Shown here in pieces: positions 5,367 through 64,000 of a DNA stretch of 64,000 bases. The DNA is from Dictyostelium discoideum (lineage: Eukaryota). The stretch covers positions 4,320,001-4,384,000 of the forward strand of contig CM000150.2 in NCBI GenBank assembly GCA_000004695.1, in the 5' to 3' direction. Position numbers and translations under genes: made by a program. A model generated the notes under the pieces. It had not been told where the DNA came from, did no database searches, and saw only the letters and a list, made by a program, of their open reading frames with translations. Positions within the stretch are counted from its first letter, which is position 1; each line of letters opens with the position of its first letter.

Positions 5367-6131
5367 CTAAAATTATAACATGCCATTATTTTTATTTAAA
5401 AGTTATATTAAAATAATTCCTTTATTTAGGTCTTTCTTAATTTAAAAAAAAAAAAAATTCCTTTTTTTTTATTTTATTTTTTTTTTTTATTTATTTTTTT
5501 TTTTATGATTGTTGACACAATCGTACAAAAAATATGAATATATTTTTGTTTTTATTATTATAATGATATCAATAATTAATTAATTATATAATTAAAAAGA
5601 AAAAAAAAAAATAATAATAATAATAATAATAAAAAAGATTTCGAACTGGTATGATGATCAAATTTAATTTAACCCACTACCACTTATATATAACTACCAA
5701 CCACAGAATTGGAATATATATATACATATATCTATTTTTTTTTTAATTTTATTTTAATTTTTTTTCCTTTTTTTTCTTTTGTGGAATTACCCACACAATA
5801 TTGTGAATTAACCACACTCACTCACTCTCTATCATATCAACTACCTACTGTTGTTGTTCCCACCCAACCAAATTAATTTTTGAGTTAGTGAGGGTGGGTA
5901 TATGTTTTTTATTTTTAATTTTTATTTTTTTTTTATTTTTTTTTTATTTTCATTTTGTTGGAAAGATGGTAGTTTGTGTGTGTATGTGCCTCAAAAAAGT
6001 AAAATAATAAGTTTTTTATACACTCCCCTAATATATTAAAAAAATTGGTTATACAAATATACACCCACACTCTCTCAAACACACACTCTATTTTTTTTTT
6101 ATTCATTTAATTATATAATAATTATTTAATC

Positions 6132-18637: not shown

Positions 18638-18907
18638 TTAATTTAATGAAATTAGTAAATAAAATAAGAATTTCCAAACAAGTTAAAATTTTTTTTTTTA
18701 TGAATTGGATAATTTTTGATGTCCTAAACAGTTAAATAAATTCTTTTTTTTTTGTGTTTTTTTTTATTATTCATTTCATTCTTTTTTTTTTTCTGGATGT
18801 GTCATTTTCAATAATTTTGCAATAAAAAACTTTTTTTTTTTTTTTTTTTTTTTTGAATTGCAATAAAAAACCCCTTTGAGCTATTTTTTTTAAAATTTCA
18901 TCGATCA

Positions 18908-18981
18908 GTTCGGATGGTGTAGTCGGTTATCACGAATCCTTAACACGGATTAGGTCGTGGGTTCGATTCCCGCTCTGAATA
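18908..18981 (+). tRNA. tRNA-Val (anticodon AAC)
   Basis: Cloverleaf readable. Acceptor GTTCGGA/TCTGAAT with two G-U pairs. Anticodon stem AATCC/GGATT with loop TTAACAC. T-arm GTGGG TTCGATT CCCGC (B box GGTTCGATTCC). Discriminator A. T5 Pol III terminator at 18993..18997. Confidence 0.85.
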
Positions 18982-19020
18982 CAAACAAACAGTTTTTAGA
19001 TATTGATGAATAGAATCGCA

Positions 19021-19031
19021 GGCTCGATTCC
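19021..19031 (+). promoter_or_regulatory. Extra B box (ex-B) about 40 bp downstream of the tRNA-Val gene
   Basis: GGCTCGATTCC is a one-mismatch copy of the intragenic B box GGTTCGATTCC. Such downstream ex-B boxes are characteristic of Dictyostelium tRNA genes. Confidence 0.4.
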
Positions 19032-19529
19032 CATAGTTGAAAGTAAATATCTAACATTTAGTTTATTATATATCTAATTAATTAATCATTAAAAAATATA
19101 AATATACATTCATAATTGGCCCATACTACTTTATTACCATTTTCATTTTCTTATAAACAACTGCCTAAATTATGATTTATTTGGGTTAAAAAATAAATTA
19201 AAAAAAAAAAAAAAAAAAACATTTTTATACACTGATATATAAATACAAACATTTCCATCCTCTTGAAGTATAAGTGGTTATCATATGTCCTGGTTATTGT
19301 AATAGTGAAATATTTAAAAAAATAAAACAAAATTTATTATTCTCATACAAATTCAATTATTTTAGTGGTAATTATTATTTTTGTCTTTGATTTATAGAAT
19401 TGTTGTGATTAGTCAATAATTTCTAATAAATTTTTTTTTTTATTTTTTATATACAATTAACTAATAAACTTAACAAGATTTTAATTTACAAAAAAAAAAA
19501 AAAAAAAAAAACCATTATTTTCCCAATTG

Positions 19530-49736: not shown

Positions 49737-54066
<4,330 letters not shown>

Positions 54067-54175
54067 AAAAATAATAATTTAAATTAAAATAATTAAATAA
54101 ATAATAAATAAATAAAATAAATAAATAAAATAAATAATAAATAATAAATAATAAATAATAAATAATAAATAAAAT

Positions 54176-54283
<108 letters not shown>

Positions 54284-54787
54284 GATCATAATTACATTAA
54301 TATGATAATATATATATTTATATAGGAATACTAATAAACTTTAAAAAATAAAAAAAAAAACTCCAAGTTTTTTTTTTTAAGATATATATTTATAAATTTA
54401 ACTTTTAAGGGGTGTATCATTAAATTTTTTTTTTCATTAATTTTTTTTTTTTTTAAATTAAAAAAACCTTTTGCTAATTAATTTTTTATTTAATTTATGT
54501 TTTTTTAAGTTAAGTTTAAAATGTTGAGTGTTTAATAGTTGTGTGGGTGGCCCATGGAAGGTGATTATCCATTCATCGTTTCTCGTTGTTATAATGTAGT
54601 TAACGGTTGAATTAGATTTATCAAAACAATATCCATTTGAGGAGGATGATGCTTAATTAATTATTTGCGAGATCTAGATTTAGATATTTGCAATAGTAGA
54701 TGAATATTTAGATTTTTTTTTTATTTTTATAAGATTAACTAATTAAATAAATAACAAAACTAAATGATTAAATAATAATATTAAAAA

Positions 54788-54821
<34 letters not shown>

Positions 54822-55991
54822 GGATATTCATTGTAATTATTTTAATTTAATTATTCTAATTTAAAATTCTAATAGAATTGTTGGTACCCATCACCAGTAA
54901 GAAGAGAGTAGGTGACAGTGGATCACTTGTTTTACTCCTGTCACTACAATAGTTTGTTTCATCTATTAAAAATCTTCATGTTACGAGTCCTTTCTGATTA
55001 TTGTTAACAATTTTTGGGAGATAGGATATTAGTTTATTATTGCTTTAGATTGGATTTTGTATATACAGTTTGCCAAAGTCATCGGCTTCCGATTTTAAAT
55101 TGATTCTTTGGAATTGTGATAATCAGCCCTTCTTTATATTGGTTTTTAATGATAAGTGGATTCTTTATTGCATCATTGAAAGTTGATGCATGAACTTTGT
55201 TGTTGTAAATAGATTGCTCCTAAGGTATTTTCCCAGAGGAAGACCATTGGTATGATGCAATGGTCCATTGAGTCAACAAATTGGATGATTTAGAAATGCA
55301 CAAGAAAAATAAAAGAATTTAAAAAATGGACAGTTGACGAAGGTTTTCTTTGAATGTAAGGAAATGTGAGAATTGCTGTAAGGTCAACTTATTTGTTATT
55401 CACATCTACAAATTATATATAAAATAATTTTAAAAGGAAATTATAATTTAAAAAAAACTTTATGGGATTTTATTTCTTAACCATTTTCCCCTTAATCTCA
55501 AAAAAAAAAATAAAATTTTTTTTTTTTATTCTTTGAAATTTATTTCTCAAATATTTATTAGAAAACAGATTAACATAACAAAAACATGATAGATTTAATC
55601 TATGCAAAACATGGGTTAAAAATCTAAATTTAGTAAAATAAAAATTTTTAAAATAAAAAAGTATGAAAAAATGGGAAGTTTTTAAAATTCTTAAAACCAT
55701 AAACTCAAACCTAAAATCTCAAATGTCTTTTTTTATTACCTAATTAAAAAAAAAAAAAATTTCTTATTGTAAATAATGAAACTAATATTAAGTTAAAAAT
55801 TAATATTTTATATTTGAGCAATTTATTTTTTAAAAAAAAAAAAAATTTAAAAATATTTTTAATTATTAATTATTAATTATTATTATTATTAATTATTAAT
55901 TATTGATTATTAATTATTAATTATTATTAATTATTATTAATTATTATTAATTATTTATTATTTATTAATTATTAATTTTTTTTTTTTTTTT

Positions 55992-57095
55992 TTAAGGAAT
56001 CCAAATTGATAAACATTTATCATAAAATGAACAGCAACCAATGAATTGTTTATCAAAATTATTTTTATTAAAAGACCAATCAACACCATATGCAATAGAT
56101 TTATGAGGACCATTATAGGATTGTTCAATTTGTAATGTTGAGAAATCATTTATATTTTCAGGATCAGTTGATAAGATATGAAAACCACCACCCATACAAG
56201 CGGTAACTAATTTATTTTTTTGAAAAGGATGCCATTTAATACGCCAAATTCCACCACCTAAAGAATCTGTTGTTATTATTGGTTGTTTTAAAGATTTTAA
56301 ATCCCAAATTCTTAAACATTCATCATAACTACCAACTGCAATTAAATTTTCAATAGTTGGATGACAATGAATTGAAGTTACACCCATATCACATCTTTTG
56401 GTAAATTTTGGAGTTGGTGGTATACCAATGTCGTCGTCGTTATGATTCAACAATTGATTTAAATCCCAAATTTTAAATTTACAATCATCACCACCTGAAA
56501 ATACTATTGATTCATCATGATAATTGAATGCACAAATCCAAGCTTCATAATCATGTGCTTTCCATCTTTTCTCTTCTGTTACTTTTGAATAATCTTTTGT
56601 CACTTTAAATAAACCAATATTCCCATCACTAAAACTACAAATTAATTTATCACCACTTTTATTCCAATCTAATGATAATGATAATATATCATTTGATAAT
56701 GAAATTTCTGTTGAACTTTTTAATTCTAATTTCTTTTCAACTTCATCATATTGATAAATATTTAATTCACCTTTTGACATTACAACACCAAGTATTCTAT
56801 CTTTATTATTATTCCATTTCATATCTAAAATACCACTATTAAAATTAATATTTTGAATTTCTTTAAATAATTTATTATTATTATTATTTTCATTATTATT
56901 ATCATTTTCTTTTTGTTGTTGTTCTTCTTCAATTTCAAATAAATATAATTTCCCTTTTCTTCTTTCTTTATATTCTGTATCACCTTTTTCAATTTCATAT
57001 GTACCACATACAAATATATTATTATTAAATGGATAAAATTCAACACTATCTGATGTATAATCTAAATATTTAGTATTTTTTATTATTTCTGTCAT
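55992..57095 (-). CDS. WD40-repeat protein, DPH7/WDR85-like (diphthamide biosynthesis) - tentative orthology; single exon, 367 aa
   Basis: ATG at 57095. N-terminus LDYTSDSVEFYPFNNNIFVCGTYEIEKGDTEYKERRKGKLYLFEI resembles the DPH7 N-terminal signature. WD repeats (FSDGNIGLFKV, FSGGDDCKFKIWDL, AVGSYDECLRIWDL). An acidic/Asn insert is present. Confidence 0.55.
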   Translation of the reverse strand: MTEIIKNTKYLDYTSDSVEFYPFNNNIFVCGTYEIEKGDTEYKERRKGKLYLFEIEEEQQQKENDNNNENNNNNKLFKEIQNINFNSGILDMKWNNNKDRILGVVMSKGELNIYQYDEVEKKLELKSSTEISLSNDILSLSLDWNKSGDKLICSFSDGNIGLFKVTKDYSKVTEEKRWKAHDYEAWICAFNYHDESIVFSGGDDCKFKIWDLNQLLNHNDDDIGIPPTPKFTKRCDMGVTSIHCHPTIENLIAVGSYDECLRIWDLKSLKQPIITTDSLGGGIWRIKWHPFQKNKLVTACMGGGFHILSTDPENINDFSTLQIEQSYNGPHKSIAYGVDWSFNKNNFDKQFIGCCSFYDKCLSIWIP

Positions 57096-57431: not shown

Positions 57432-57910
57432 ATGTGTAAACATATTCTTGTAAGTTAAAAACCAAAAATTTAATTATTAAAGAATTATAATTCTAAAGTA
57501 AAATAATTAAATTTATATATAAATATATAAAATAATTAATTTTTCTATTTTTTATATTTATATATATATAGAATACACAAGTATCAATTAGAGCAAAATG
57601 TTGTAATAAATGGTTTGATTGTGCAGATTGTCATAGAGAAGTATCAGATCATGATATTTATAAAAGTGATGAAATGATATTTGCATGTAAAAAATGTAAA
57701 AAAGTATTTAGAAAAACTATATCAACATTTGAAGAAGCAGATGAATATTGCCCACATTGTGATAATCATTATTATTTAGAAGCCGTAAAACCACAACCAA
57801 AAATTTCAATTGAATTAGATGGTGATGAAAGACTTGAAACTTTAATGTTAGATCCAAGACAAAAAAGATTAGATAAATCAATGTATGATGGTCAAGAATA
57901 TGAACAATAA
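57432..57910 (+). CDS. Small CHY/Zn-ribbon-like zinc-finger protein, about 119 aa; exons 57432..57449, 57572..57910
   Basis: Six-codon first exon ATGTGTAAACATATTCTT|GTAAGT. Acceptor tatatatag|AAT, in frame. Product is MCKHILNTQVSIRAKCCNKWFDCADCHREVSDHDIYKSDEMIFACKKCKKVFRKTISTFEEADEYCPHCDNHYY, with regularly spaced Cys/His pairs. Confidence 0.5.
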
Positions 57911-61271: not shown

Positions 61272-61856
61272 ATGATGATGAAATATTTTCATGGTGGTAT
61301 AGATGAAATTGTATTATTTAAAACATGGATAACATATGATTTAGGTTCATTTATTGGAACTTGGTTTGCAATTTTTGCATTTTCATTTTTTTATGAATTT
61401 TTCAAGACTTTTAGAAGTATTATAGAAATTAATTGGAGAAGAAATAATAATAATAATGATAATAATAATAATAATAATAATATTAAACAAGATGAAGAAA
61501 TAAATATGAATAAAATTTCATTTTCATTTTTAAAAGGATCATATCCTTCATTTACTTATAAAGAAATAATTGTAAGTTTTTTTTTAATTTTTTTTAATTT
61601 TTTTTTTTATTATTATTTTTTTTATTATTATTTTTTTTTTTTCAAACAAAATGATTAAATTAAATTATTAAAAATTATAATTTAGGGAGGCATATTTTAT
61701 GGAATTGAAACTGGAATGAGTTTAATTTTAATGCTAATTGTAATGTTATTTAATACCGCTTTATTCTTTTCAATTTTAATGGGAATTGTTTGTGGAAATA
61801 TTTGTTTCGGAAGATTTAATCAATTTAAACCAAAATCATCATCATCTTGTTGTTAA
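61272..61856 (+). CDS. Ctr-family (SLC31) copper transporter, about 157 aa; exons 61272..61571, 61686..61856
   Basis: MMMKYFHGGIDEIVLFKTWIT (Met-rich N-terminus). TM1 GSFIGTWFAIFAFSFFYEF. After GTAAGT...tttag, TM2-3 with the Ctr GxxxG motif (MLIVMLFNTALFFSILMGIVCG) and a C-terminal Cys-Cys. Confidence 0.75.
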
Positions 61857-62127
61857 AGAATTAAGGAGGAGGGGTTGAGTGTAATTTAATTTGGAAAAAA
61901 AAAAAAAAAAAAAAAAAAAAATAATAAAAAAAAATATAAAATTAAAAATAATTGAAAATTTTTTTTTTTTTTTTTTAAAATTTTTTTTTTTTAATTTTTT
62001 TATTTTTTTTTTTTTAAATTAAAATTTGTCAACTTCATCATTTTTTTTTTATAATTTTTTTTTTTTTTCCACACACTACATAAACATATTTTTTTCATTA
62101 TACATATAAACAAATAAATCAAATACC

Positions 62128-63311: not shown

Positions 63312-63766
63312 TTCAATTAGCTCATTTCTCTGATTCAATTAAAGGCGATAGATATTTAGCTGAACATTCACGTTTCTTTACTAGAGAAATGAGAATTTTG
63401 GCTTATAATCAATTTTTAGAATCTTATTCATCTGTAAAATTAGAATCAATGTCAAATCAATTTGGTGTATCTTATGATTTTATTGATAGGTTTGTTGTTT
63501 ATTATTATTATTATTAATATTTTATTTATATTTTTTTTTAATATTAATAAATTTTCTTTTTTTTTTTTTTTTTTTTTTTTTTAATCTTCAGAGAATTATC
63601 ACGTTTTGTAGCAGCAGGTCGTTTAAATTGTAAAATTGATAAAGTTTCAGGTGTCATTGAAACTACCAGAAGTGATGCAAAGAATCATTTATACAAAACT
63701 ACACTTCAACAAGGTGATAACTTATTAAATAGAGTTCAAAAATTATCTCGTGTAATAAATGTTTAA
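62128..63766 (+). CDS. psmD6: 26S proteasome non-ATPase regulatory subunit 6 (RPN7/PSMD6), PCI domain; exons 62128..62251, 62404..62609, 62737..63211, 63321..63489, 63592..63766
   Basis: Spliced product is colinear with human PSMD6: ...[42 protein letters not shown] | [67 protein letters not shown]... | [35 protein letters not shown]... | [24 protein letters not shown]...[14 protein letters not shown]. Donors GTAAGT, GTAAAT, GTAATT, GTTTGT. All exon phases are consistent. Confidence 0.9.
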
Positions 63767-64000
63767 ATTCATAATAACTTTTCCAACAATATTTTGTGGA
63801 AAAAAAAAAAATTACAAAAAAAAAAAAAAAAGTTAAATAAATAAAAAAAAAGATAAAAATAAAAAAAATTATTGATTGTAAATATCAAAAAAAAAAAAAA
63901 AAAGTATTTATCAGTGATTGGAAAAAAAAAAAAAGAAAGAATATTATATTTAATAAAAGAAAAAAAAATTATTTTTTAAAAATAGAAAATGAAAAAAAAA

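What the first reader, a model, noticed from the sequence alone, without database searches (positions are those of the whole stretch)
54480..55450. About 0.9-kb GC-elevated, ORF-free block between two convergent genes
Two stretches (54480..54720 and 54840..55440) have GC of about 35-40 %, against below 15 % for typical intergenic DNA here. No frame has an ORF of 60 aa or more, and stop codons occur in all six frames. Local stem-forming inverted repeats are present (e.g. GGTGACAGTG...CCTGTCACTAC at 54920..54950). In this genome, GC-richer non-coding DNA usually means a structured ncRNA gene, a decayed transposable-element fragment or a pseudogene.
Basis: seen in the sequence. Interest (0 to 1): 0.5.

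Follow-up and report, generated by a model that had tools for sequence, protein, structure and literature searches.

The report
Known small RNA gene plus unexplained spacer
The right edge of this block is DdR-30, an already catalogued and highly expressed Dictyostelium small RNA gene with its promoter; the other ~0.8 kb is non-coding DNA missing from a sister species, probably an inserted relic, so the finding is largely ordinary.

Summary
The window is Dictyostelium discoideum chromosome 1 (window position + 4,320,000). The block is real but overstated. Its two stretches have 26.6% and 29.6% GC (cores about 32%), not 35-40%, against 6-12% in the flanking spacer. It is the only ~1-kb GC-elevated, ORF-poor block in the 64 kb.

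Window 55388..55331 (- strand) matches the published Class I RNA gene DdR-30 at 58 of 58 bases (Rfam RF01414, 54.2 bits). It has a DUSE box (TCCCATAA) 72 nt upstream, a TGTG-box variant 13 nt upstream and a T6 terminator. Published data report it as abundantly expressed.

The remaining ~0.8 kb (54520-54700 and 54879-55302, joined by an AT/T29 linker) is non-coding:
- no period-3 or codon-usage signal;
- no protein homologue on either strand;
- no Rfam hit and no fold-energy signal.

Neither this DNA nor DdR-30 is found in the orthologous spacer of D. dimigraforme. The alignable anchor there ends at about window 54455.

My best reading is a lineage-specific insertion that has not yet decayed to AT-richness. 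It would be a non-coding mobile-element relic or a flank copied along with DdR-30. An unannotated lncRNA is the main rival. A BLAST against the D. discoideum genome and repeat library, which I could not run, would decide.

The parts
55460..55467 (-). DUSE promoter element TCCCATAA of DdR-30. Its 3' end is 72 nt upstream of the RNA 5' end.
   Evidence: One search finds an exact WCCCAYAA match. It is the only one within 150 nt upstream of the Class I hit; the window-wide count of 8 is at chance level, so position is what matters. Kjellin 2021 Table S2/S3 lists the same motif and the distance 72 for DdR-30.
55401..55407 (-). TGTG-box variant AGATGTG, 13 nt upstream of the RNA start and 59 nt downstream of the DUSE.
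   Evidence: Read from the sequence. The identical motif and the distances 13 and 59 are listed for DdR-30 in Kjellin 2021. The role of the box, promoter element or precursor start site, is unknown according to that paper.
55331..55388 (-). Class I RNA gene DdR-30 (r30), 58 nt. It has a 6-bp terminal stem, the 11-nt motif CCTTACAGCAA and a CUG(U) end.
   Evidence: Rfam RF01414 scores 54.2 bits against a gathering score of 41.5, matching the full model. The sequence is a 58/58 exact match to DdR-30 in ddi_curated.fa. The published position is chr1 4375329-4375388, minus strand. The terminal stem appears in the MFE fold.
55321..55326 (-). T6 run five bases after the end of the Rfam match (separated by TCCA). 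This is a Pol III-type terminator signal.
   Evidence: Read from the sequence. Kjellin 2021 notes T-runs downstream of many Class I genes. That it acts as a terminator here is inferred.
54879..55302 (.). Main GC-elevated non-coding segment, about 424 bp and about 32% GC. The - strand is A+C-rich (A 0.39, C 0.20). Origin unresolved.
   Evidence: Composition is. There is no period-3 signal and codon-usage scores equal the shuffled null. No protein homologue was found on either strand. No Rfam hit at E<=10. Fold z-scores are -0.59 and +0.18. It has no counterpart in the D. dimigraforme spacer. The boundaries are my post-hoc TGT...ACA reading and are not established.
54793..54821 (.). T29 homopolymer (A29 on the - strand) inside the AT-rich linker between the two GC-elevated segments.
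   Evidence: It could be a retroposition poly(A) tail on the - strand, or an ordinary Dictyostelium homopolymer. Runs of 10-14 are common nearby.
54520..54700 (.). Small GC-elevated non-coding segment, about 180 bp and 32.6% GC.
   Evidence: Composition is. It contains most of the longest stop-free stretch (54652..54464, - strand), which has no homologue among 1.84 billion representative proteins. The fold z-score is -2.2 on the - strand. One 150-nt window (start 54579) has GC-phase chi2 9.4, but in a phase inconsistent with that stop-free frame.
54290..54453 (.). Spacer stretch orthologous to D. dimigraforme. It marks the left limit of the D. discoideum-specific DNA.
   Evidence: The local alignment to L001 11637-11789 scores 73, against 30 +/- 4.4 (maximum 54) in shuffles.

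Best explanation
The block is two things.

(1) Shown: its right edge is the known Class I RNA gene DdR-30 on the - strand. The layout is DUSE (55467..55460), then the TGTG-box variant (55407..55401), then the 58-nt RNA (55388..55331), then a T6 run. Published work reports it as an abundant, developmentally regulated small RNA whose transcription depends on the DUSE.

(2) Inferred: the remaining ~0.8 kb (54520-54700, an AT/T29 linker, and 54879-55302) is DNA with no coding capacity and no detectable RNA structure. It entered this spacer in the D. discoideum lineage after the split from D. dimigraforme. It still has exon-like GC because it is too young to have decayed to the ~10% GC of neutral Dictyostelium spacer.

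The most likely source is a non-coding piece of a mobile element: an LTR-like or UTR fragment, or a retroposed non-coding RNA ending in the A29 run on the - strand. Another possible source is flanking DNA that was copied to this site together with DdR-30 when the Class I family expanded. On this reading the 0.8 kb has no function of its own.

Part (1) is near certain. The confidence figure given is for part (2).
For: DdR-30:
- Rfam RF01414 scores 54.2 bits against a gathering score of 41.5.
- The sequence is 58/58 identical to DdR-30.
- The DUSE and TGTG box sit at exactly the published distances of 72, 13 and 59 nt.
- Published read counts are 195k-519k per library, and the Northern blot column is flagged 1.

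The remainder is non-coding:
- GC-by-phase chi2 is mostly below 4 in the block, against 7-25 in every window of the two flanking genes.
- The best-of-six-frames codon score is -1.17 to -0.18 bits per codon. The shuffled null is -0.60 +/- 0.21. Held-out real genes score +0.07 to +0.80.
- No protein hit at E<=10 on either strand in 5.8 billion proteins, a set that includes the D. discoideum AX4 proteome.
- No hit for the longest stop-free stretch among 1.84 billion representatives.

The remainder is not a known or strongly folded RNA:
- No other Rfam hit at E<=10.
- Fold z-scores are -0.59 and +0.18 for the main segment.
- No box C/D candidates.

Lineage-specific:
- The D. dimigraforme orthologous spacer is ~910 bp, against 1926 bp here. 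It has no GC-rich block and no Class I RNA even at E<=10.
- Alignable orthologous spacer stops at window ~54455, right at the block's left edge.
- The D. purpureum and P. violaceum DPH7 loci also lack a Class I gene.
- Published work says retrotransposons expanded specifically in D. discoideum, and that Class I genes expanded mainly after speciation.

Retroposon-like layout on the - strand: an A+C-rich segment, then an AT-rich tail, then A29.
Against: - No second copy of the block was seen anywhere I could look: the rest of the 64-kb window, the first 400 kb of chr1 and of the D. firmibasis assembly (12 GC-rich 14-mers), and JGI metagenomes. These cover only about 1% of the genome, so they are weak tests.
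- No convincing terminal repeats or target-site duplication; only AT-rich low-complexity matches.
- My TGT...ACA / AGAAT-AGAAA reading of 54879-55302 is post hoc. Its 424 bp matches none of the published D. discoideum LTR lengths of 390, 265 and 208 bp.
- Most of a Dictyostelium transposon is coding, so a random 0.8-kb relic would usually show ORF homology. None is seen.
- Long A/T runs are common in this genome, so A29 need not be a retroposition tail.
- Absence in D. dimigraforme could equally be a deletion there.
- Retention of 32% GC could also reflect selection, for example on a transcript.
Confidence: 0.4

Rival explanations
1. The ~0.8 kb is an unannotated long non-coding RNA gene, or two short ones, transcribed by Pol II from the spacer. 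Selection on the transcript or its transcription keeps the GC near 30%. It may be functionally or regulatorily linked to the adjacent DdR-30.
For: - Published D. discoideum lncRNAs are richer in GC than silent spacer (median 17% against 13%), with a median length of 628 bp, close to this block's size.
- The block keeps 30-33% GC with no coding signal.
- The small segment folds somewhat better than shuffles on the - strand, z -2.2.
- TATA-like and T-run sequences lie upstream on the + strand at 54385-54455, and an AATAAA lies at 55308-55313 (by eye).
Against: - The 621-entry lncRNA list of Rosengarten et al., held uncut, has no chr1 model with a start or end coordinate between 4,374,300 and 4,375,699. 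That covers the whole block, 4,374,480-4,375,450. Their filter excluded models contiguous with an annotated neighbour, so an abundant r30 next door could have masked one.
- 30% GC is far above the lncRNA median.
- No fold-energy signal in the main segment.
- No counterpart at the orthologous D. dimigraforme site.
- I have no expression data.
Confidence: 0.27
2. The block is a decayed pseudogene, or the remains of short spliced exons of a protein-coding gene, most likely on the - strand where the stop-free fragments look more protein-like.
For: - GC equals that of exons here.
- The - strand fragments have Dictyostelium-like residue composition, for example 54652..54464 (63 aa) and 55219..55082 (46 aa).
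- An AT-rich linker between the two segments could be read as an intron, with an AG just before 54652 on the - strand.
Against: - No period-3 GC signal.
- Codon-usage scores equal the shuffled null in all six frames.
- Stop density is about as expected by chance for this composition.
- No homologue on either strand at E<=10, although the D. discoideum proteome is in the database.
- No hit with exhaustive phmmer.
- No similarity to anything in the window or the related loci.
- Loss of the codon signal should go together with loss of GC, which has not happened.
Confidence: 0.06
3. The main segment (about 54879-55302) is a retroelement fragment, a solo LTR or a 5'-truncated non-LTR 3' end. It was targeted to the region about 30 bp downstream of DdR-30 because Class I genes carry a Pol III transcription complex, as TRE3 and Skipper-2 elements are targeted downstream of tRNA genes.
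For: - The segment begins 18 nt after the T6 run of DdR-30 and lies on the same strand axis.
- Read on the - strand, it is followed by an AT-rich tail and A29.
- It has TGT...ACA ends with AGAAT/AGAAA flanks (post hoc).
- Published elements insert 8-23 bp (Dd Skipper-2) or ~100 bp (TRE3) downstream of Pol III genes.
Against: - No reverse-transcriptase, ORF2 or gag homology.
- The length matches no published D. discoideum LTR.
- The termini and TSD were chosen after the fact in AT-rich DNA.
- Targeting of Class I genes by these elements is not reported in the papers read. In those papers the targeting signals for the best-studied element, TRE5-A, are internal B boxes and TFIIIB/TFIIIC, and Class I genes use an external DUSE promoter.
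- The sequence could not be compared with TRE3, Skipper or DGLT-A.
Confidence: 0.1

Closest known systems
Dictyostelium Class I RNA genes (Rfam RF01414; DdR-21 to DdR-67). This one is DdR-30 / r30.
   Same: Window 55331-55388 is identical to DdR-30. It has the 6-bp terminal stem, the CCTTACAGCAA motif, a start at G after AA, and a CUG(U) end. It also has a DUSE at 72 nt, a TGTG-box variant at 13 nt and a T-run terminator.
   Different: Nothing differs for the gene itself. It accounts for only about 6% of the flagged block, or about 15% with promoter and terminator. It is a singleton here, whereas many Class I genes sit in clusters.
Solo LTRs and non-coding fragments of D. discoideum retrotransposons (Skipper-1/2, DGLT-A 'H3R', TRE3/TRE5 UTR modules)
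   Same: Non-coding, a few hundred bp, richer in GC than spacer, lineage-specific, and next to a probable Pol III gene. It has possible TGT...ACA ends and an A-run on one strand.
   Different: The length of 424 bp does not match the 390, 265 or 208 bp LTRs. There is no clear TSD and no second copy in the small part of the genome I could search. Sequence identity to any element is untested.
Intergenic lncRNAs of D. discoideum (Rosengarten et al. 2016/2017, 621 models)
   Same: Intergenic, ORF-free, 0.2-1 kb, and richer in GC than untranscribed spacer.
   Different: It is not in their list at these coordinates. Its GC of ~30% is well above their 17% median. I have no expression evidence.

Membership tests
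Class I RNA (RF01414), specifically DdR-30 | Covariance-model score at or above the Rfam gathering score, over the full model | tested here: met
   54.2 bits against 41.5, model positions 1-56 of 56, E 4.8e-9. The match also passes in the whole-window scan.
Class I RNA (RF01414), specifically DdR-30 | Short stem joining the 5' and 3' ends, the adjacent 11-nt motif CCUUACAGCAA, and a CUG(U) 3' end | tested here: met
   The 6-bp stem GUUGAC/GUCAAC appears in the CM alignment and in the MFE fold. The motif is exact and unique in the window. The sequence ends CTG followed by T.
Class I RNA (RF01414), specifically DdR-30 | DUSE ([A/T]CCCA[C/T]AA) about 60 nt upstream of the start site or of a TGTG box | tested here: met
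   TCCCATAA lies at 55467..55460, and AGATGTG lies at 55407..55401. The spacing is 59 nt from DUSE to TGTG box and 13 nt from TGTG box to RNA. Kjellin 2021 lists identical values for DdR-30.
Class I RNA (RF01414), specifically DdR-30 | Sequence identity to the catalogued gene, and its genomic position | tested here: met
   58/58 identity to DdR-30. The published position, chr1 4375329-4375388 minus, fits the window offset of 4,320,000.
Class I RNA (RF01414), specifically DdR-30 | Expression as a ~58-nt RNA | not testable with these tools
   Taken from the literature only: 195k-519k small-RNA reads per library, with the read-coverage and Northern blot columns flagged 1 in Kjellin 2021 Tables S2/S3.
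Protein-coding gene or pseudogene | Open frame, three-base periodicity and codon usage typical of the genome | tested here: not met
   The longest stop-free run is 63-64 codons, with a median of 38. GC-phase chi2 is mostly below 4, against 7-25 in real genes. Codon scores equal the shuffled null.
Protein-coding gene or pseudogene | Detectable homologue or parent gene | tested here: not met
   No hit at E<=10 on either strand. No phmmer hit among 1.84 billion representatives for the longest stretch. Nothing by tblastn in the window or L001; L002 was not in that database.
Transposable-element relic (LTR, non-LTR or DNA element) | Homology to element-encoded proteins (RT, IN, gag, transposase) | tested here: not met
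   Searches gave no hits. This excludes a coding part of an element, not a non-coding part.
Transposable-element relic (LTR, non-LTR or DNA element) | Several related copies in the genome, or a match to a repeat consensus | not testable with these tools
   No D. discoideum genome or repeat library was available. Partial negatives only: the rest of the window and 14-mers against the first 400 kb of chr1 and of D. firmibasis.
Transposable-element relic (LTR, non-LTR or DNA element) | Structural ends: TIRs or LTR TG...CA termini with a target-site duplication, or a poly(A) tail with a TSD | tested here: inconclusive
   Only low-complexity repeats were found. There is a post-hoc TGT...ACA reading with AGAAT/AGAAA flanks, and an A29 run on the - strand. 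The length matches no published LTR.
Structured ncRNA covering the block (any Rfam family, snoRNA) | Covariance-model match, or folding energy well below shuffles | tested here: not met
   No Rfam match at E<=10 other than DdR-30. Main-segment z-scores are -0.59 and +0.18. There are no box C/D candidates. Only the 221-nt small segment reaches z -2.2, on the - strand.
Intergenic lncRNA | A discrete transcript in RNA-seq | not testable with these tools
   There is no entry at these coordinates in the published 621-model list. That list's filters could have excluded a model abutting r30.

The most novel reading that the evidence does not exclude
The ~0.8 kb next to DdR-30 is a D. discoideum-specific long non-coding RNA gene, held at exon-like GC by selection and functionally coupled to the adjacent Class I RNA. 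An alternative novel reading is a retroelement fragment showing that Class I genes are recognised as Pol III targets, as tRNA genes are.
Probability: 0.15. Interest if true: 0.5.

Novelty: already known. Interest (0 to 1): 0.22.

Why it matters
The one functional element that can be identified, DdR-30, has been catalogued since 2004 and re-validated in 2021, so it adds nothing new.

The leftover 0.8 kb is a modest curiosity. It is exon-like in GC but has no coding or structural signal, and it is absent from a sister species. If it proves to be a mobile-element fragment at a fixed distance downstream of a Class I gene, that would support Pol III transcription of Class I genes and suggest how the family spread. 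If it proves to be a transcribed lncRNA, it would be an unusually GC-rich, species-specific one. Either outcome is a small addition, not a surprise.

Tried and rejected
- Protein homology of all stop-free fragments of 20 aa or more, plus two shorter + strand ones, with one query per strand: nothing at E<=10.
- Exhaustive phmmer of the longest stop-free stretch: nothing.
- tblastn and blastn of the block against the rest of the window; blastn also against the D. dimigraforme and D. purpureum loci, tblastn against D. dimigraforme only. Only AT-rich low-complexity matches.
- Exact-product look-ups of D. discoideum proteins to fetch more D. discoideum DNA. The species is not in the positional index.
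- JGI metagenome scans for a generic Class I pattern and for a block 24-mer: zero matches.
- Twelve GC-rich 14-mers, six sites in both orientations, against the truncated chr1 and D. firmibasis FASTA files in the Kjellin supplement: zero matches.
- Published lncRNA list: no entry at these coordinates.
- The one stored miRNA supplement: no matching number strings for the main segment, 4,374,800-4,375,399. Whether that file gives coordinates at all is unknown.
- The dictyBase GFF in the Kjellin supplement is truncated before this region.
- A second Class I gene or a degenerate copy in the block: rejected.
- Box C/D snoRNA scan: none.
- Terminal inverted or direct repeats: only low complexity.
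- The bacterial-type promoter and terminator scan is irrelevant here and was at chance level.
- A fragment of rRNA or another Rfam-catalogued RNA: unlikely, since no rRNA, intron or other Rfam hit appeared at E<=10.
Full report
**Where the window comes from.** The - strand ORF at 55992..57095 is 100% identical to the D. discoideum AX4 WD40/DPH7 (diphthine methyltransferase/methylhydrolase) protein. The Class I RNA described below is catalogued at chr1 (DDB0232428) 4375329-4375388. Window position + 4,320,000 therefore gives the chromosome 1 position.

**Checking the observation.**
- The block lies in a 1926-bp spacer between convergent genes. A + strand LRR/PP2C ORF ends at 54066, and the - strand DPH7 ORF ends at 55992.
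- GC is 26.6% for 54480-54720 and 29.6% for 54840-55440. The cores (54520-54700 and 54880-55400) are 32.6% and 32.4%. No 200-nt window exceeds 33.5%.
- The contrast with the surroundings is real. The flanking spacer is 6.1% and 11.5% GC, the internal linker is 7.6%, and the neighbouring coding sequences are 23.5-24.6%.
- The largest ORF inside the block is 38 aa. The longest stop-free run is 63-64 codons with no start codon.
- Among 41 blocks of at least 27% GC in the 64 kb, this is the only ~1-kb one without a long open frame. The other four ORF-poor blocks are 214-394 bp, and one of them is the tRNA-Val locus.
Hairpins are not enriched overall: fold-energy z-scores for 54860-55330 are -0.59 (- strand) and +0.18 (+ strand).

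**What can be identified: DdR-30.**
- An Rfam scan of 53500-56500 at E<=10 gives one real hit. It is RF01414 (Dictyostelium Class I RNA) at 55388..55331 on the - strand, scoring 54.2 bits against a gathering score of 41.5, over the full model. The hit is also significant in the whole-window scan.
- The 58 nt are identical to DdR-30 in the curated FASTA of Kjellin et al. 2021 (PMC7919456).
- On the - strand the layout is canonical for D. discoideum:
  - DUSE TCCCATAA at 55467..55460;
  - the TGTG-box variant AGATGTG at 55407..55401;
  - AAG at the start, the 6-bp stem GUUGAC/GUCAAC, the 11-nt motif CCUUACAGCAA and a CUG-U end;
  - then CCA and a T6 run at 55326..55321.
- The distances are 72 nt from DUSE to RNA, 13 nt from TGTG box to RNA, and 59 nt from DUSE to TGTG box. 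These are exactly the values tabulated for DdR-30. The same table gives 195k-519k small-RNA reads per library and flags the Northern blot column 1.
- WCCCAYAA occurs 8 times in the window against about 10 expected by chance. It is the position, not the occurrence, that carries weight.
- This gene is already known. With its promoter and terminator it spans 55321-55467, about 15% of the flagged region.

**The other ~0.8 kb is not coding.**
- GC counted by codon phase in 150-nt windows gives chi2 mostly below 4 across 54400-55450. Every window of the two flanking genes gives 7-25.
- I trained a codon-usage log-odds score on the window's long ORFs and normalised it to local base composition. Over the block, the best of six frames scores -1.17 to -0.18 bits per codon. 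Shuffled block sequence scores -0.60 +/- 0.21, which is indistinguishable. Held-out DPH7 and PP2C windows score +0.07 to +0.80, always in the true frame.
- Stop-free fragments of the - strand and of the + strand were concatenated and searched against 5.8 billion proteins. That set includes the AX4 proteome. Nothing was found at E<=10.
- The longest stop-free stretch (54652..54464, - strand) finds nothing among 1.84 billion representatives with exhaustive phmmer.
- A pseudogene, hidden exons, or the coding part of a transposon are therefore not supported.

**It is not a recognisable or strongly structured RNA.**
- No other Rfam family reaches E<=10.
- No second Class I motif is present.
- There is no box C/D architecture.
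- There is no global folding signal. The one exception is a modest z of -2.2 for the 221-nt small segment on the - strand.

**It is lineage-specific.**
- Through the DPH7 orthologues I fetched three syntenic loci: D. dimigraforme (84% identity, L001), D. purpureum (69%, L002) and P. violaceum (56%, L003).
- Only D. dimigraforme keeps the convergent partner. I take its 1378-aa gene to be the LRR/PP2C orthologue on the basis of synteny and the alignable spacer next to it, not a direct protein comparison.
- Its spacer is ~910 bp and stays at or below 27% GC in 100-nt windows. It has no Class I RNA at the gathering score or at E<=10. It has nothing similar to the block.
- One stretch of spacer does align. 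Window 54453..54290 matches L001 11637..11789 with score 73, against 30 +/- 4.4 in shuffles. That stretch runs into a shared (AAT)n microsatellite.
Everything from ~54455 towards DPH7, including DdR-30 and the block, has no counterpart. The right-hand boundary cannot be placed, because the remaining alignments are driven by poly(A).
- The D. purpureum and P. violaceum DPH7 loci have different downstream neighbours and no Class I gene.
- This agrees with two published conclusions. Class I genes expanded mainly after speciation. Retrotransposons expanded specifically in D. discoideum.

**Best reading of the remainder.** Neutral spacer in this genome sits near 10% GC. A 32% GC stretch with no coding or structural signal is therefore either young or under selection. 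It is absent from a close relative and no functional signature was found. I favour young inserted DNA, from one of two sources:
- a non-coding piece of a mobile element;
- flanking DNA that moved with DdR-30.

On the - strand the order is: DdR-30, T6, an A+C-rich 424-bp segment (A 0.39, C 0.20), about 57 nt of AT-rich sequence, A29, then the second 180-bp segment. This resembles a retroposed unit.

The segment 54879-55302 can also be read as TGT...ACA with AGAAT/AGAAA flanks. I found these features after the fact, in AT-rich DNA. The 424-bp length matches none of the published D. discoideum LTRs, which are 390, 265 and 208 bp. No clean repeats flank the block.

I could not compare the block with the D. 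discoideum genome or its repeat library. The partial substitutes were all negative but cover only about 1% of the genome:
- the rest of the window;
- 12 GC-rich 14-mers against the first 400 kb of chr1 and of D. firmibasis held in a supplement;
- two metagenome scans.

I put this reading at about 0.4.

**Main rival: an unannotated lncRNA.** Published D. discoideum lncRNAs are richer in GC than silent spacer and are of similar length. However, no model in the 621-entry list has a start or end coordinate in or next to this block, and 30% GC is far above their 17% median. That list's filters could have dropped a model abutting the abundant r30. I put this at about 0.27.

**Lesser rivals.**
- A retroelement specifically targeted downstream of a Pol III-like Class I gene is an attractive sub-case but untested, about 0.1.
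- A pseudogene is largely refuted, about 0.06.

**Verdict.**
- Its suggested checks (Rfam and DUSE) recover a known gene, DdR-30, at the block's edge.
- The bulk of the block remains an unassigned, species-specific, non-coding stretch, most likely inert inserted DNA.
- A single BLAST against the D. discoideum genome and repeat set, plus a look at RNA-seq coverage, would settle it.
- Interest is low.

Noticed in passing
window 54100-54285; L001 11760-11945: A long (AAT)n microsatellite lies directly after the LRR/PP2C stop codon. It is present at the same place in D. dimigraforme, as (ATT)n in that locus's orientation. The repeat tract has been kept at the orthologous position although most of the spacer no longer aligns.
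   Followed up: partly
window 54290-54453 vs L001 11637-11789: An island of alignable spacer (score 73 against 30 +/- 4.4 in shuffles) sits in an otherwise unalignable intergenic region, next to the 3' end of the LRR/PP2C gene. It may be a 3' UTR or polyadenylation region.
   Followed up: partly
L001 11380-11480: The D. dimigraforme spacer carries about five copies of an AAAAGTGAAAA(T) motif within ~100 bp. There is no counterpart in D. discoideum. Meaning unknown.
   Followed up: no
window 18908-18982 (+): A tRNA-Val(AAC) gene (ARAGORN; Rfam 57.9 bits) lies in a 394-bp GC-elevated, ORF-poor block (18762-19155). I did not check for TRE-type retroelement fragments beside it.
   Followed up: no
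window 55840-55975: A ~120-bp run of TTATTAA/ATTATTA-type simple repeats followed by T18 lies directly after the DPH7 stop codon. An AT-only 76-aa ORF at 55470..55700 (-) is almost certainly spurious.
   Followed up: no
window 5664-6028, 61675-61888, 63571-63807: Three further short (214-365 bp) GC-elevated blocks have maximum stop-free runs of only 58-71 codons. They are probably short exons but were not examined.
   Followed up: no
window 57674-57910 (+) / 55992-57095 (-); L001, L002, L003: A small gene sits head-to-head with DPH7 in D. discoideum. In D. dimigraforme, D. purpureum and P. violaceum the gene at that position is a zf-CHY gene, so this divergent pair appears conserved. I did not run a domain scan on the D. 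discoideum ORF itself. The gene downstream of DPH7 differs in D. purpureum and P. violaceum; D. dimigraforme keeps the convergent partner seen in D. discoideum.
   Followed up: partly
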